Below are positions 5,085 to 50,504 of a stretch of 64,000 nucleotides of DNA, one piece after another. A program made the position numbers and the translations under genes. The DNA lies in NCBI GenBank assembly GCA_016187025.1, contig JACPKM010000004.1:99637-163636 (forward strand). The letters run 5' to 3'. The notes below the pieces were generated by a model. That model worked only from the letters and a program-made list of their open reading frames with translations, did not search any database and was not told where the DNA came from. This stretch comes from Candidatus Daviesbacteria bacterium (lineage in GTDB: Bacteria; Patescibacteriota; Microgenomatia; Daviesbacterales; UBA10151). The stretch's first letter is position 1. Every line of letters begins with the position of its first letter.

Positions 5085-6704
5085 ATGCAGGATACTAAGT
5101 CAGCCTTCTATTTAAAATATCGTCCTCAAAGCTTAAATGATTTAATTGGCCAGGAAACAGTTAAAAAGATTTTGCAATCAGCTTTTTCTCTAAATAGACT
5201 TTCTCACGCATATATATTTGTTGGACCAAGGGGAACAGGTAAAACATCAACTGCCCGGATTTTGGCAAAGATGGTGAACTGTGAAAAGGGCAAAGCCCTG
5301 CCTGCCGGCAGGCAGGGGGAAAGCGGAAAAAGTGAATTACCTTGCAACAGCTGTTCGGCATGCCTTTCTATTACTGATGGCACTAATTTGGACCTTATAG
5401 AAATTGACGCAGCATCAAACAGAGGAATTGATGATATTAGATCACTGCGGGAAAGAATCAATTTAGCGCCTACAAATGCCAAGAAAAAAGTGTACATCAT
5501 AGATGAGGTGCACATGCTTACAACCGAGGCGTTTAACGCCCTTTTGAAGACTTTAGAAGAGCCTCCTGCCCATGCTTTGTTTATTTTGGCAACTACCGAA
5601 GGCTCAAAAGTTCCCCAAACAATTCTTTCCCGCTGCATAAGATTGGATTTTAAACTAGCCAGCCAGCAGGAGCTTGTACAAGTTTTAAGTATTATCACAA
5701 AAGAAGAAAAAATAGAAATAGATGAAGATAGTATTAAAATTGTTGCTCAAAAAGCTGATGGGAGTTTCCGGGATGGGGTTAAGCTTTTGGATCAGGTATC
5801 ATCATGGAGTGGAAAAATTACAGCCGTAAAGACTCAAGAGAGCCTGCGTTCATCCAAGTTTGAACAAACAACTAAAGTTTTAGAGCATCTTTCCCTCAAC
5901 AGCACAAAAGAGGCTTTGCTTGAGATAACAAACCAGACAAAAGAAGGCATAGATACAAAAGGATCTATCACCTCTTTAATGGAGGCCATGCGGCATTTTG
6001 TCTTTATCAAAAGTGGTTTGGTAAAAGAGCTGGTAGAACCATTCTGGGGTGAGGAAAAAACTAAAGTTTTAATATCTTTATCTGAAAAATTTGATACAGG
6101 AGCGCTAATAAAAAATTTAGATTTACTCCAAACTGCACTGGAAAAGCTTAAAACTTCCTCAATTGAGGCATTACCGCTTGAACTGGCAGTTGTCCAAATG
6201 TGCAGATATGAACCAGAATCAGCAGTTATGAATCGAGAATCAGAGGATTTAGAAATACTTCCTGTGACAAGTGAAATAAATATCCCTGTTTCCGAGACAA
6301 AGTTGGTAATGGATAAATCTGCTAAAGAGCCTAAATTGGATGGTCAAGATATGTCAGATTTATCCAAGGTAAAAGAAAAATGGAACTTTGTACTAGAAAC
6401 TGTCAGACAAAATAATTTCTCTTTGGAAGCACTTTTGCGCTCTGTAGAGCTGGGAGACTGCAGTGGTTCAACTGTTGTTATCAAAGTACCCTATTCTTTT
6501 CATCAGAGAATATTAGATGCTCCCAAAAACAGAGAACTGGTGGAAGCAATCATTTCTGATATTTTAGGACGGAGTATTAAAATTACAACCTCAGTTGGGA
6601 TAAGACGGCCTAGAAAAGAGGATATTGCCAATATTGAGGTGGCAGCAGATGATGAGGTAATAAGAATTGCCTCAGAAATTTTCAGTTCAGAAACAGTCAA
6701 TTAA
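5085..6704 (+). CDS. dnaX: DNA polymerase III subunit gamma/tau
   Basis: AAA+ P-loop GPRGTGKTS and zinc module NCEKG...CNSCSAC. Carries an extra ~12-aa loop encoded by a GC-rich palindrome (see findings). Confidence 0.88.
   Translation: MQDTKSAFYLKYRPQSLNDLIGQETVKKILQSAFSLNRLSHAYIFVGPRGTGKTSTARILAKMVNCEKGKALPAGRQGESGKSELPCNSCSACLSITDGTNLDLIEIDAASNRGIDDIRSLRERINLAPTNAKKKVYIIDEVHMLTTEAFNALLKTLEEPPAHALFILATTEGSKVPQTILSRCIRLDFKLASQQELVQVLSIITKEEKIEIDEDSIKIVAQKADGSFRDGVKLLDQVSSWSGKITAVKTQESLRSSKFEQTTKVLEHLSLNSTKEALLEITNQTKEGIDTKGSITSLMEAMRHFVFIKSGLVKELVEPFWGEEKTKVLISLSEKFDTGALIKNLDLLQTALEKLKTSSIEALPLELAVVQMCRYEPESAVMNRESEDLEILPVTSEINIPVSETKLVMDKSAKEPKLDGQDMSDLSKVKEKWNFVLETVRQNNFSLEALLRSVELGDCSGSTVVIKVPYSFHQRILDAPKNRELVEAIISDILGRSIKITTSVGIRRPRKEDIANIEVAADDEVIRIASEIFSSETVN
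5296..5317. repeat. 22-bp perfect GC-rich palindrome CCCTGCCTGCCGGCAGGCAGGG, in-frame inside dnaX
   Basis: Read directly from the sequence. The same 20-bp core occurs inside prmC at 50116-50135. It is highly atypical GC content for this AT-rich window. Confidence 0.9.
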
Positions 6705-44343: not shown

Positions 44344-44625
44344 ATGCAAAATTATTATTTAACTCTGGTGCTAAAACCTGATTTAGAAGACAAAGATAAA
44401 GACCGTATTTTGGATGCGGTTAAAAAGCGTGTTGTGGGGGAAGAAGGCAAAGTCAGCAAAGAAGATAAATGGGGAAGCAGAGATTTAGTTTATCCAATAA
44501 AGAAAAACTCTAAAGGATTTTATATGCACTATGAGATAGAAACAGAACCAGCTCGGGTAAAAGGCCTTGACAAATTTTTACAACTAGAGGAAGATATATT
44601 GCGGTACCTGTTGGTACGAGTCTAA
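44344..44625 (+). CDS. rpsF: 30S ribosomal protein S6
   Basis: MQNYYLTLVLKPDL...GFYMHYEIE, in the rpsF-ssb-rpsR arrangement. Confidence 0.88.
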   Translation: MQNYYLTLVLKPDLEDKDKDRILDAVKKRVVGEEGKVSKEDKWGSRDLVYPIKKNSKGFYMHYEIETEPARVKGLDKFLQLEEDILRYLLVRV

Positions 44626-48669: not shown

Positions 48670-49803
48670 ATGATGGATTTATCAAAATATAACTTACCAA
48701 AACCAAGTATCACCGGACTTTTAATAAGTATTTCACTAGGGGTTATAGTGGCAGTAGCTTTATACCAAGCGCAAGTTAGAGGCATTTTGCCTAGTAATGA
48801 TTTTAAGTTACCTCAAATCCAAACTCAGGAGAAAAAAACAATAGTACAGGAAGAAAATGCCATTATTTCTGTTGTTGATGCTGTGTCCTCCTCTGTTGTA
48901 GCAATTGGTATAACAAGGAGGGTAGTAAACCCTTTAGACCCTTTTTCCTTGCCACAAAAACAAGATAGTACTATAGGTACAGGATTTGTAGTTTCCAAAG
49001 ATGGAGTTATAGTCACAAACAAGCATGTAGTATCAGATCCAGATGTAAAGTTTATGGTTATTACAAAGGATGATCAAAAGTTTGAAGTTAAAAGAATCTA
49101 TAGAGATACAGTATTGGATTTGGCACTGGTGCAGATTGATGCTTCGGATTTAAAGCCTGTTGATTTGGGAGACTCAGCTAAGCTACGGATTGGACAGACA
49201 GCTATTGCCATTGGTAATGCCTTAGGAAGATTTACTAACACTGTTACAACGGGAGTAATTTCCGGGTTGGGAAGGGCAGTGATAGCTGGTGATCCGTTTG
49301 AAGGTTCAGTTGAAAGATTGGACAATTTAATTCAAACAGATGCTGCCATTAACCCGGGTAACTCTGGAGGGCCTCTTTTAAACTCTGGGGGTCAGGTGAT
49401 AGGGGTCAATGTGGCAACAACCGAAGGAGCGCAAAATATTGGTTTTGCGATTCCTATTAACTCTGTTAAACCTATTGTTGATGAGTTTTTAACAACAGGT
49501 TCAGTCTCGCGTCCATATCTTGGGATAAGATATAGGTTTGTTTCCCGCGATGTGGCAATTTTAAATGAGGTGCCTCAGGGGGTATATATTCAGGAAGTAT
49601 TAGATGACAGCCCGGCTAAAAAAGCAGGTATTGAAGAAGGGGATATAATTACAAAAATTAATGGTCAAGCTATAGACCAAGAGAATAAGGTATCAGATAT
49701 TGTGGCTGATAGTAATATAGGCCAAAACGTAAACTTAACTGTATGGAGAGACGGGAAGGAACTAAATATGACAGCAACTGTGGGTAATTCTCCGAGTCAA
49801 TAA
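48670..49803 (+). CDS. htrA: HtrA/DegP family serine protease with PDZ domain
   Basis: Trypsin-like catalytic triad context (TNKHVV, GNSGGPL) and a C-terminal PDZ. Confidence 0.88.
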   Translation: MMDLSKYNLPKPSITGLLISISLGVIVAVALYQAQVRGILPSNDFKLPQIQTQEKKTIVQEENAIISVVDAVSSSVVAIGITRRVVNPLDPFSLPQKQDSTIGTGFVVSKDGVIVTNKHVVSDPDVKFMVITKDDQKFEVKRIYRDTVLDLALVQIDASDLKPVDLGDSAKLRIGQTAIAIGNALGRFTNTVTTGVISGLGRAVIAGDPFEGSVERLDNLIQTDAAINPGNSGGPLLNSGGQVIGVNVATTEGAQNIGFAIPINSVKPIVDEFLTTGSVSRPYLGIRYRFVSRDVAILNEVPQGVYIQEVLDDSPAKKAGIEEGDIITKINGQAIDQENKVSDIVADSNIGQNVNLTVWRDGKELNMTATVGNSPSQ

Positions 49804-50504
49804 CAAATCAACAATACCCTTTGTTTTTTGGCCAAATCTGTTTTTACCTCAACTTGAGCTTTAGGAAAATACTTTAAGGATTCAGATATTGCCAGTTCTC
49901 CATGAGTATAGTCAATTTCACCAACAATGAGCTTGGGATTTATGTTTGCCTTTTTAATTTGTTTAAAAAGCTTGCGGTAAAGTTCAAAACCATCTTTCCC
50001 TCCGTCAAGTGCAATATTGGGTTCATAATTTTTAACTGAAGGATCCAAATATGGAATTCTTTCTGATGGGATGTAGGGGAGATTAGTAATGATAATTAGG
50101 TTGTAGGTTGTAGGTCCTGCCTGCCGGCAGGCAGGTTGTAGGGGGTAGTTAGCAAGAAGATTGCTTTGGATAAATTTAATTTGGTTTTCAACTCCATGTA
50201 GTTTTGCGTTTTTTTGAGCTACTTTTAAAGCCCGAGAGGAGATATCTGTTGCGAAAACTTTCACACCGGGTGCATTTTTAGCAATTGATATGGCAATATT
50301 TCCAGATCCTGTACCAATATCGATAACTAATATGTTTTTTTCTTCAACCTTACTACTTAATACATCATACTTAATACTTTTTAGTACCTCATCTACCAGT
50401 AACTCAGTTTCCGGGCGGGGAATTAGCACATCAGGGGTTAGCTTAAGTTTTAACTTATAAAATTCAGCAAATCCTTGTAAATACTGCTTAGGCGGTTGAT
50501 TCAT
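49797..50504 (-). CDS. prmC: Release factor glutamine methyltransferase PrmC/HemK
   Basis: SAM motif [12 protein letters not shown] and an N(L)PY catalytic motif. An extra loop PACRQAGPT is encoded by the GC-rich palindrome. Confidence 0.85.
50116..50135. repeat. 20-bp perfect GC-rich palindrome CCTGCCTGCCGGCAGGCAGG inside prmC, flanked by TTGTAGG/CCTACAA direct repeats
   Basis: Read directly from the sequence. The same core is in dnaX at 5296-5317. Confidence 0.9.

What the first reader, a model, noticed from the sequence alone, without database searches (positions are those of the whole stretch)
50095..50160. Same palindrome in prmC, flanked by CCTACAA direct repeats (possible target-site duplication)
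On the coding strand of prmC the sequence is CCCTACAA | CCTGCCTGCCGGCAGGCAGG | A CCTACAA CCTACAA, giving an extra PACRQAGPT loop just upstream of the N(L)PY catalytic motif. A 20-bp palindrome plus a 7-bp repeat is 27 nt, consistent with a frame-preserving insertion plus duplication. Two independent in-frame insertions into essential genes point to an active or recently active element, or to a recombination-generated hairpin.
Basis: partly seen in the sequence, partly recalled or inferred. Interest (0 to 1): 0.75.

Follow-up and report, generated by a model that had tools for sequence, protein, structure and literature searches.

The report
Tiny palindromic insertion element in prmC
A 20-base perfect palindrome sitting in-frame inside the essential gene prmC is one copy of a very small insertion element found, letter for letter, in at least 120 genomes of about ten bacterial phyla and in phage contigs, and I found no description of it in the searchable literature.

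Summary
CCTGCCTGCCGGCAGGCAGG (PAL) lies at 50116-50135 inside prmC and again at 5297-5316 inside dnaX, against 0 matches in shuffles. The host is a Candidatus Daviesbacteria (Patescibacteria) genome.

PAL is not local. The exact 20-mer occurs in at least 120 genomes of about ten phyla, including 7 cultured Bacteroidota, and in 35 viral stretches, always with unrelated flanks. Three composition-matched control palindromes gave 0 viral hits.

Where the empty state can be inferred, PAL is a clean 20-bp insertion without duplication. Examples are the variable loop of a tRNA-Met and the loop/stem junctions of phage hairpins. In coding loops it is PAL plus one base, 21 bp or 7 codons: prmC, probably dnaX, and a gatB elsewhere.

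About 10-12% of copies carry abutting 7-bp direct repeats, far above chance.

The insert encodes PACRQAG in a hypervariable loop, the only low-confidence stretch of the PrmC model.

Best reading: a non-autonomous hairpin element moved in trans by unknown machinery. No mobilising gene and no strain-level presence/absence polymorphism was found. Nothing in 10 literature searches describes it.

The parts
50116..50135 (.). PAL copy 2: the exact 20-bp palindrome CCTGCCTGCCGGCAGGCAGG inside prmC. It encodes (P)ACRQAG on the minus strand.
   Evidence: DNA hairpin of 8 bp with a CCGG loop, -8 kcal/mol.
50115..50135 (-). Inferred 21-bp insertion (PAL plus one base, 7 codons: P A C R Q A G).
   Evidence: The window loop is 93 nt against 72 nt in the orthologue of L158. 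The alignment is gap-free after removing PAL+1. Which flanking base is the extra one cannot be decided.
50094..50114 (.). Heptamer tract on the plus strand: AATTAGG TTGTAGG TTGTAGG (coding strand CCTACAA CCTACAA CCTAATT), on the 3' coding side of PAL.
   Evidence: The family-wide link with 7-nt periodicity is shown.
50136..50142 (.). TTGTAGG unit abutting PAL on the other side (coding strand CCTACAA, 5' of PAL).
49797..50504 (-). prmC (release-factor glutamine N5-methyltransferase), intact 235-aa ORF.
   Evidence: 100% to an NCBI Daviesbacteria PrmC; PDB HemK/PrmC hits.
50073..50084 (-). NLPY, the NPPY-type catalytic motif IV. It lies 10 residues downstream of the insert.
   Evidence: (TNLPYIP is invariant in 120 homologues).
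5297..5316 (.). PAL copy 1 inside dnaX, in the loop between the first and second Cys of the zinc module. It encodes LPAGRQ(G). Here the palindrome extends to 22 bp (5296-5317).
5289..5332 (+). Context of copy 1: GGCAAAGC | PAL | GGGAAAGC GGAAAAAG. This is an imperfect 8-nt repeat on both sides with heptamer periodicity.
   Evidence: The window loop is 84 nt against 60 nt in the L157 orthologue; the best fit is removal of 21 nt plus a one-codon indel.
5085..6704 (+). dnaX (DNA polymerase III gamma/tau), intact 539-aa ORF.

Best explanation
The palindrome in prmC is one copy of a very short, GC-rich, perfectly self-complementary insertion element (PAL, 20 bp). PAL is scattered at low copy number through many bacterial phyla and their phages.

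Shown: it is an insertion, not a locally evolved sequence. Where the uninterrupted state can be inferred, the insert is exactly the 20-mer with no target duplication, placed in loops or at loop/stem junctions of DNA hairpins, in tRNA loops, and even inside another PAL. In protein-coding loops the surviving form is PAL plus one base (21 bp, 7 codons).

At this locus it adds PACRQAG to a hypervariable surface loop between the motif-III strand and the NLPY catalytic motif of PrmC. PAL has no stop codon in any of its reading frames, and the loop tolerates length changes, so the essential gene stays intact. The same holds for dnaX in this window and for rpsF, gatB, ftsK and dnaX in other genomes.

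Inferred: PAL is non-autonomous and is moved in trans by machinery that recognises folded (hairpin or single-stranded) DNA. Candidates are an HUH/Y1-type transposase or a structure-specific nick-and-ligate activity. That machinery sometimes leaves 7-bp duplications, and repeated events would build the heptamer tracts seen next to many copies. The enzyme is unknown.
For: Dispersal: at least 120 genome loci, each from a different genome and spanning about ten phyla, hold the exact 20-mer with unrelated flanks. So do 35 viral stretches. Three composition-matched palindromes, including the reversed junction, gave 0 viral hits. Fewer than about 3 matches are expected by chance in 596 Gb (my calculation).

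Insertion status:
- None of 119 PrmC homologues has the segment.
- The closest DnaX relatives have 5-9 residue loops against 20 in the window. A 58%-identical DnaX (P0165/L156) carries an independent PAL in the same loop.
- prmC is exactly 21 nt longer than the L158 orthologue.
- The L104 gatB is +7 aa against two solved GatB structures.
- tRNA-Met in L145 is called as 92 nt with PAL and as a canonical 72 nt without it.
- In one phage contig, 3 of 19 paralogous hairpins carry PAL at the junction of the 9-nt loop and the 3' stem; 10 are plain.
- PAL is nested in PAL in L018 and L042.

Other features:
- Degenerate copies exist.
- 7-bp repeats abutting PAL: 15 copies with at most 1 mismatch against 0.4 expected. 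A period-7 duplication is present in 10.2% of sites against 0.4% of controls, and periods 6, 8 and 9 are much weaker. These copies are mostly outside long ORFs.
- Only 23 of 127 copies lie in long ORFs.
- In the AlphaFold model of PrmC (mean pLDDT 86), the only residues below 50 are 123-130, QPACRQAG.
- The PAL-bearing prmC is assembled identically from several independent sequencing runs.
Against: No presence/absence polymorphism between near-identical genomes was found, so current mobility is not demonstrated. The nearest relatives of this genome are only about 70% identical in these proteins.

No transposase-like gene recurs near PAL in 155 loci or was found among the window ORFs checked.

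Copy number per genome looks low, which is unusual for MITE- or REP-like families.

Three different insertion outcomes (20, 21 and 20+7 bp) are not explained by one simple mechanism.

Identity of a 20-mer across phyla is hard to reconcile with ordinary vertical decay of a selfish repeat.
Confidence: 0.6

Rival explanations
1. One reading: a classical miniature inverted-repeat transposon. PAL would be two abutted 10-bp terminal inverted repeats of an insertion sequence, inserted by a DDE transposase that makes a 7-bp target-site duplication, so each event adds 27 bp and preserves the frame.
For: A sharp excess of exactly 7-bp direct repeats abuts PAL, for example L045, L080, L082, L101 and L139. 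In L121/L150 a filled site has one more heptamer than its empty paralogue.
Against: About 85% of exact copies have no flanking repeat, although a 14-bp duplication pair should survive as well as the 20-mer does. All sites with an inferable empty state are clean 20-bp or 21-bp insertions. At prmC the repeat spacing is 28 and the net gain is 21. Solo half-sites are only degenerate PAL copies; none bounds a larger element. No parent element with a loop or cargo was found.
Confidence: 0.15
2. A repair scar. PAL would be a self-annealing oligonucleotide or duplex captured as filler when breaks or nicks are sealed, for example at hairpin tips cut by a structure-specific nuclease. Blunt breaks would give clean 20-bp inserts and staggered breaks would give 1-bp or 7-bp duplications after fill-in.
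For: This accounts for the mixture of 0, +1 and +7 outcomes and for the position at hairpin loop/stem junctions. It also fits the low copy number per genome and the lack of a nearby element-encoded gene.
Against: No source of such an oligonucleotide is known. It does not explain why this one sequence is used, and its reversed junction is not, across phyla. Many of the lineages, notably Patescibacteria, are not known for end joining (my knowledge; not tested).
Confidence: 0.12
3. A functional motif. PAL would be a protein-binding site or structural DNA/RNA signal kept by selection, and its presence in genes would be incidental.
For: The sequence is exactly conserved, about 80% of copies lie outside long ORFs, and the hairpin is stable.
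Against: There is no enrichment of T-runs, 9.6% against 11.9% in controls, so it is not an intrinsic terminator. No Rfam family matches. Flanks and genomic neighbourhoods are unrelated. Copies interrupt tRNA(-like) genes and essential proteins. Decayed copies are common.
Confidence: 0.08
4. Local origin or artefact. Either ordinary codon repetition and replication slippage created the hairpin independently in prmC and dnaX, or it is an assembly or adapter artefact.
For: The site is embedded in short tandem repeats, and the loops are hypervariable.
Against: The identical 20-mer occurs in more than 150 unrelated loci. These include cultured isolates, a curated complete genome, and contigs whose record titles point to different assembly programs (MEGAHIT- and SPAdes-style contig names, and 'tig'/'contig' names). 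The window region is reproduced in several runs. Control palindromes gave 0 hits. The reading frames stay intact.
Confidence: 0.03

Closest known systems
Rickettsia palindromic elements (RPE; Ogata et al. 2000, from my knowledge)
   Same: Palindromic selfish repeats that sit in-frame inside essential protein-coding genes, in surface-exposed segments, without destroying function. They are also found in RNA genes and intergenic DNA.
   Different: RPEs are about 100-150 bp, are restricted to Rickettsia and relatives, and diverge between copies. PAL is 20 bp, identical across about ten phyla and phages, and adds only 7 residues.
REP/REPIN elements with RAYT (TnpA-REP) transposases
   Same: Short (20-40 bp) GC-rich hairpin repeats, mostly extragenic, thought to be moved as single-stranded hairpins by an HUH/Y1 enzyme without target duplication.
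   Different: REPs carry a GTAG or CGTC tag, are imperfect palindromes, occur in hundreds of copies, often as inverted pairs, and are lineage-specific. PAL flanks are random apart from A at -1, copy number looks low, and no RAYT-like gene was seen nearby.
Neisseria dRS3 repeats / NIME (20-bp ATTCCC-N8-GGGAAT; my knowledge)
   Same: Exactly 20-bp palindromic repeats scattered through a genome. Closely similar hairpins (ATTCCCGCGAAAGCGGGAAT) occupy the same PrmC and DnaX loops in relatives of this organism.
   Different: dRS3 has conserved ends with a variable centre. It is known as a target for phage and IS110-type integration and as a border of mosaic elements. It is not known as an in-frame insert shared across phyla.
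Yeast mitochondrial GC clusters (for example the optional clusters in var1; my knowledge)
   Same: Short GC-rich palindromes invading an AT-rich genome, sometimes in-frame within a protein gene, flanked by short duplications, with no encoded enzyme.
   Different: They are organellar, 30-50 bp, and fall into several sequence classes. Their spread is documented by gene conversion in crosses. No link to bacteria is known.
Bacterial MITEs (Correia, Nezha, RUP and others)
   Same: Non-autonomous, with terminal inverted repeats, sometimes with target duplications, and sometimes inside genes.
   Different: MITEs are 100-400 bp with a recognisable parent insertion sequence and a constant duplication length. 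PAL is only the inverted repeat itself and mostly lacks a duplication.

Membership tests
MITE (DDE-transposase derived) | Constant target-site duplication at every fresh insertion | tested here: not met
   Only about 10-12% of 167 copies have an abutting 7-bp repeat. Clean 20-bp insertions occur at L145, L141/L149, L004 and L152, and 21-bp insertions in prmC and gatB.
MITE (DDE-transposase derived) | Terminal inverted repeats shared with an autonomous insertion sequence | tested here: inconclusive
   In the 1.27 Mb of fetched loci, every solo 10-mer half-site printed (55, from the 34 loci that carry one) was part of a degenerate or tetranucleotide-extended PAL copy. None paired up as the two ends of a larger element. 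Whole genomes could not be searched.
REP/REPIN-RAYT | Conserved GTAG or CGTC tetranucleotide next to the hairpin | tested here: not met
   Flank composition from -12 to -1 is near background, apart from A 41% / T 10% at -1.
REP/REPIN-RAYT | High copy number in one genome with a cognate RAYT gene | not testable with these tools
There are 2 copies in this 64-kb window and no Y1-like ORF among those checked.
Rickettsia palindromic elements | 100-150 bp element with family consensus, confined to the Rickettsiales | tested here: not met
   PAL is 20 bp. Its hosts are Patescibacteria, Bacteroidota, Omnitrophota, Planctomycetota and others.
Rickettsia palindromic elements | In-frame residence in functional protein genes at tolerant surface sites | tested here: met
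   prmC, dnaX, rpsF (L047), gatB (L104) and ftsK (L013) keep open frames. The insert is the only low-pLDDT segment of the PrmC model.
Intrinsic terminator | GC hairpin followed by a T-run | tested here: not met
   9.6% of copies have a T- or A-run within 10 nt, against 11.9% of control positions.
Known structured RNA (Rfam 15) | Match to a covariance model | tested here: not met
   0 matches at E<=1 over window 49800-50500.
CRISPR repeat | Regularly spaced array of repeats with unique spacers | tested here: not met
   The two window copies are 44.8 kb apart. Most loci hold a single copy.

The most novel reading that the evidence does not exclude
PAL is the smallest mobile DNA yet seen: a 20-nt self-complementary element spread across phyla and phages by an unrecognised, structure-directed insertion machinery. 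That machinery would target hairpin loops, tRNA loops and heptamer tracts, leave 0-, 1- or 7-bp duplications, and through repeated visits build the hypervariable, 7-residue-periodic surface loops of essential proteins in Patescibacteria and other environmental bacteria.
Probability: 0.22. Interest if true: 0.9.

Novelty: new variant of a known kind. Interest (0 to 1): 0.74.

Why it matters
Short palindromic repeats such as REP, RPE, dRS3 and organellar GC clusters are known only as lineage-restricted families, and how they move is largely unresolved. An exact 20-mer shared by Patescibacteria, Bacteroidota (including culturable strains), Omnitrophota, Planctomycetota, proteobacteria and phages would be a tractable system for that open question. 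Its insertions can be dated against tRNA and paralogous hairpins.

It would point to a broadly distributed insertion activity that has not been recognised. It would explain part of the odd loop insertions in essential proteins of candidate-phyla bacteria. It would also matter for annotation and for homology-based inference on those proteins.

The cultured Bacteroidota carriers (Winogradskyella echinorum, Flagellimonas yonaguniensis, Longitalea luteola, Aquiflexum lacus and others) make experiments possible.

Tried and rejected
- Strain-level presence/absence. Gapped-anchor scans for filled and empty alleles of L139 and L123, an empty tRNA-Met allele in viral contigs, and L101 in JGI metagenomes returned only the known filled alleles or nothing. 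The nearest relatives of the window's PrmC and DnaX are 71% identical or less.
- Parent element. Solo half-sites are only degenerate PAL copies. CCTGCCTGCC-N1-30-GGCAGGCAGG in viral contigs gave mostly chance GC-rich contexts plus a few nested or tandem variants.
- Linked gene. All-against-all clustering of 3749 ORFs from 155 loci gave no family shared by more than 6 genome loci. No transposase was found among 10 unassigned window ORFs.
- Known RNA family: none.
- Terminator role: rejected.
- tRNA restoration. Removing PAL restores a canonical tRNA only in L145. L030 is a pseudo-copy beside an intact tRNA-Val. L015, L037, L085, L099 and L152 are D-arm-like 5' fragments that ARAGORN does not call, so my early impression of many interrupted tRNA genes was scaled back.
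- Frame filter. The idea that the 7-bp repeat peak comes from selection for reading frame was rejected, because those copies are mostly non-coding.
- Curated collections. GenBank phages and PLSDB plasmids hold no exact PAL.
- Literature. Ten searches, including the exact sequence and related hairpin sequences, found nothing describing the element. The only lead was the similarity of a neighbouring hairpin family to Neisseria dRS3 (plus my own knowledge).

Full report
**1. What is in the window**

The window is 37% GC. At 50116-50135 it holds the perfect 20-bp palindrome CCTGCCTGCCGGCAGGCAGG, called PAL here. On the coding (minus) strand of the 235-codon ORF 49797-50504 the context is ...TAC CCC CTA CAA | PAL | A CCTACAA CCTACAA CCTAATT.... 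This gives ..[28 protein letters not shown].

The ORF is PrmC/HemK. It is 100% identical to an NCBI Candidatus Daviesbacteria protein and matches solved HemK structures.

An identical copy lies at 5297-5316 inside dnaX, in ..NCEKGKA-LPAGRQG-ESGKSELPCNSC. The shuffled window gave no match, even with 3 mismatches allowed. These two are the only long GC-rich palindromes in the 64 kb.

**2. PAL is not a local oddity**

By record title they are:
- 36 Patescibacteria: WWE3, Daviesbacteria, Saccharibacteria, Uhrbacteria, Peregrinibacteria and others.
- 38 Bacteroidota, including 7 cultured isolates: Winogradskyella echinorum, Flagellimonas yonaguniensis, Longitalea luteola, Flavivirga sp., Aquiflexum lacus, Agriterribacter humi and Aestuariivivens sediminis.
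- 10 Omnitrophota.
- About 8 Planctomycetota/PVC.
- About 12 uncultured Gammaproteobacteria.
- Smaller numbers of Bdellovibrionota, Desulfobacterota, Nitrospirota, Chloroflexota and Elusimicrobiota.

IMG/VR viral contigs gave 35 further stretches, and one 29.5-kb contig carries six copies. Flanks are unrelated between loci.

From base composition I expect fewer than about 3 chance matches in the whole genome collection. Three control palindromes of identical composition, including the reversed junction GGCAGGCAGGCCTGCCTGCC, gave 0 viral hits against 35 for PAL.

Copies occur in a curated complete genome, a single-cell genome, and contigs whose record titles point to different assemblers. The PAL-bearing prmC region is reproduced base for base in independent assemblies of several sequencing runs. 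Artefact and independent local origin are therefore excluded. Degenerate copies with 1-3 changes are common in the same loci, as expected for a decaying repeat family.

**3. PAL is an insertion, and its size can be read**

(a) None of 119 PrmC homologues has the segment. The loop between ..SNLL and IIVTNLPYIP is hypervariable, 0-25 residues.

(b) The window loop DNA is 93 nt, against 72 nt in the gene for P0054 (L158). Removing PAL plus one base gives a gap-free alignment with 53 of 72 positions identical. Removing 27 nt needs 6 gapped positions.

(c) In DnaX the closest relatives have 5-9 residues between the first two zinc-module cysteines, against 20 in the window. Against P0122 (L157) the best fit is removal of 21 nt plus a one-codon indel. 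A 58%-identical DnaX (P0165, L156) carries its own PAL in the same loop with different flanks. That is most simply an independent insertion.

(d) Elsewhere PAL sits in-frame in rpsF (L047; the window's own S6 at 44344-44625 lacks it), in gatB (L104) and in ftsK (L013). The L104 GatB is exactly 7 residues longer at that point than two solved GatB structures.

(e) In non-coding contexts the insert is exactly 20 bp, with no duplication:
- A viral tRNA-Met(CAT) is called as 92 nt with PAL forming a long variable arm, and as a canonical 72 nt once PAL is deleted.
- One phage contig has 19 paralogous hairpins of the form CCCATCCTTG-loop-CAAGGGTGGG. Ten have a plain 9-nt loop. Six have the loop replaced by another small palindrome, TCCGCCGCGGCGGA. 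Three have the 9-nt loop plus PAL, exactly at the loop/3'-stem junction.
- L004 and L152 hold paralogous copies with and without PAL.
- PAL is nested inside PAL, one base off centre, in L018 and L042.

Fourteen of 125 copies lie at or near the apex of a larger inverted repeat of at least 7 bp, against 2.9 expected.

**4. The flanking direct repeats**

Over 167 copies, a 7-bp direct repeat abutting both sides of PAL occurs with at most 1 mismatch 15 times, against 0.4 expected. With PAL removed, an exact period-7 duplication is present at 10.2% of sites against 0.4% of control positions. Periods 6, 8 and 9 reach only 0.6, 2.4 and 1.2%.

These copies are mostly outside long ORFs, so the number 7 is not a reading-frame filter. 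Flanks also show raised lag-7 and lag-8 autocorrelation within a single flank. However, the controls are mainly coding sequence, so this last point is weaker.

About 85% of exact copies have no repeat at all.

At prmC the two repeat copies are 28 nt apart, because an extra base follows PAL, and the net gain is 21 nt. The same layout is seen at dnaX (GGCAAAGC | PAL | GGGAAAGC) and in L156. PAL-free orthologues already show a weak heptamer rhythm at the homologous place, for example L157: GGTAAAG GGGCAAG CGGAAAG GGTGAAG.

So at this site the CCTACAA units are better read as a heptamer tract into which PAL+1 was placed than as a fresh 7-bp duplication. Whether such tracts are footprints of earlier events or a preferred target is unresolved.

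**5. Why the genes survive**

PAL has no stop codon in any frame (what the sequence shows directly). The three readings PACRQAG, LPAGRQ and CLPAGR are all seen in long ORFs.

The PrmC model is confident (mean pLDDT 86, pTM 0.86). The only residues below 50 are 123-130, QPACRQAG. This is a loop between the strand ending in SNLL and the strand leading into NLPY. Solved HemK proteins also differ in length there.

The same PrmC and DnaX loops in relatives hold other small hairpins: ATTCCCGCGAAAGCGGGcAT in L159, and ATTCCCGCGAAAGCGGGAAT plus ATCCTCGCCTTCGCGAGGAT in L160. These resemble Neisseria dRS3 repeats (and my own knowledge). These loops are therefore recurrent landing sites for several hairpin elements.

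Only 23 of 127 copies lie inside long ORFs, although the genomes are gene-dense. This fits purging of most genic insertions.

**6. Mechanism**

Shown:
- PAL is a dispersed insertion.
- The insert is a clean 20-mer in structured non-coding targets, and 21 bp in tolerated coding loops.
- It is preferentially placed at hairpin loops or apices and in its own centre.
- It has a specific association with 7-bp duplications.

Inferred: PAL is a non-autonomous element moved in trans by an activity that recognises folded single-stranded DNA.

Not found:
- Any linked gene.
- Any parent element.
- Any empty allele in a near-identical genome.

The rivals, given with their weights in the Rival explanations section, are a classical MITE with 7-bp duplication, capture of a self-annealing oligonucleotide during break repair, and a selected binding site or RNA signal. 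PAL is not an intrinsic terminator and matches no Rfam family.

**7. Comparison with what is known**

PAL works most like Rickettsia palindromic elements, which also reside in-frame in essential genes, and like REP/REPIN or dRS3 repeats, which are short hairpins without duplication. It fails the defining features of each: length, lineage restriction, sequence tags and copy number. It also fails the constant-duplication criterion of MITEs.

The exact sequence and several related queries gave no paper. Curated GenBank phages and PLSDB plasmids hold no exact copy.

I rate it a new variant of a known kind. The cross-phylum identity of so short an element is the surprising part.

**8. Limits**

- Orthologue comparisons rest on relatives 58-71% identical, in loops that evolve fast.
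- Most "tRNA" contexts are only D-arm-like fragments.
- Mobility is inferred from comparative anatomy, not observed.

Noticed in passing
window 5297-5316 (dnaX, ORF 5085-6704): A second exact PAL lies in the loop between the first and second Cys of the DnaX zinc module (LPAGRQG). The closest relatives have 5-9 residue loops there, against 20 in the window.
   Followed up: yes
L156 376-395 (Logan SRR12113419, dnaX of a 58%-identical relative): An independent PAL sits in the same DnaX loop with different flanks (GGTCAGCG | PAL | TCTCAGCG). An 11-nt repeat AGCGTCTAGTT lies on both sides and is read in different frames.
   Followed up: partly
L047 3381, L104 3773, L013 5955: PAL is in-frame in rpsF (another Daviesbacteria), gatB (an uncultured gammaproteobacterium; +7 aa against solved GatB) and ftsK (Saccharibacteria). 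All are variable loops of essential proteins.
   Followed up: partly
L159 1181-1205; L160 295-342: Other small GC hairpins occupy the same PrmC and DnaX loops in relatives: ATTCCCGCGAAAGCGGGcAT, and ATTCCCGCGAAAGCGGGAAT plus ATCCTCGCCTTCGCGAGGAT. They give peptides such as VIPAKAGIQ and SFPRKRES..RLREDD and resemble Neisseria dRS3. Several hairpin families seem to colonise these loops.
   Followed up: partly
L141, L148, L149 (IMGVR_UViG_3300037242_000417, 29.5 kb): A phage contig holds 19 copies of a hairpin CCCATCCTTG-loop-CAAGGGTGGG. Ten have a plain 9-nt loop, six have the loop replaced by the 14-bp palindrome TCCGCCGCGGCGGA, and three have PAL added at the loop/stem junction. This is a natural series of filled and empty sites.
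   Followed up: partly
L154 3915-4124 (viral contig IMGVR_UViG_3300025106_000007): A tandem array of 10 copies of a 21-mer PAL variant, CCATGCCTACCGGCAGGCAGG. L173/L180, one of which is from the same contig, hold two abutted 21-mer variants. The unit length of 21 equals PAL+1, as in the coding insertions.
   Followed up: no
L145 2284-2303: A viral tRNA-Met(CAT) has PAL in its variable loop. ARAGORN calls it as a 92-nt tRNA with a long extra arm, and as a canonical 72-nt tRNA once PAL is removed. The related contig L122 has the same insertion plus a 12-nt deletion of the T-arm.
   Followed up: partly
L015 4041, L037 2127, L099 5992, L152 515, L085 67, L030 3628: PAL recurs at the 3' edge of tRNA D-loop-like sequences (..TAGCTCAGTTGGTA | PAL | GAGC..). 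These are 5' fragments or pseudo-copies, not tRNAs that ARAGORN calls. L030 is a partial duplicate just upstream of an intact tRNA-Val.
   Followed up: partly
all 125 genome-derived copies: The bases next to PAL are not random. A...T occurs 33 times against 20.8 expected, and G...G or C...C 33 times against 15.7 expected. This suggests a 22-bp subfamily and/or a one-base duplication or a 21-nt variant.
   Followed up: no
PrmC homologues P0004, P0024, P0040, P0058, P0063, P0072 and others: Many relatives show a 7-residue direct repeat in the same loop at protein level (YTL.P.PYTL, CNLLPVPCNL, NCKLPTVNCQL). That is a 21-nt periodicity, which could be three heptamer units.
   Followed up: no
window about 50821 (inside prfA, near the GGQ-motif codons): Three independent Logan contigs carrying this region (L161-L163) all end at exactly the same base and are otherwise identical to the window. 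This is probably a graph break at a sequence shared among related populations.
   Followed up: no
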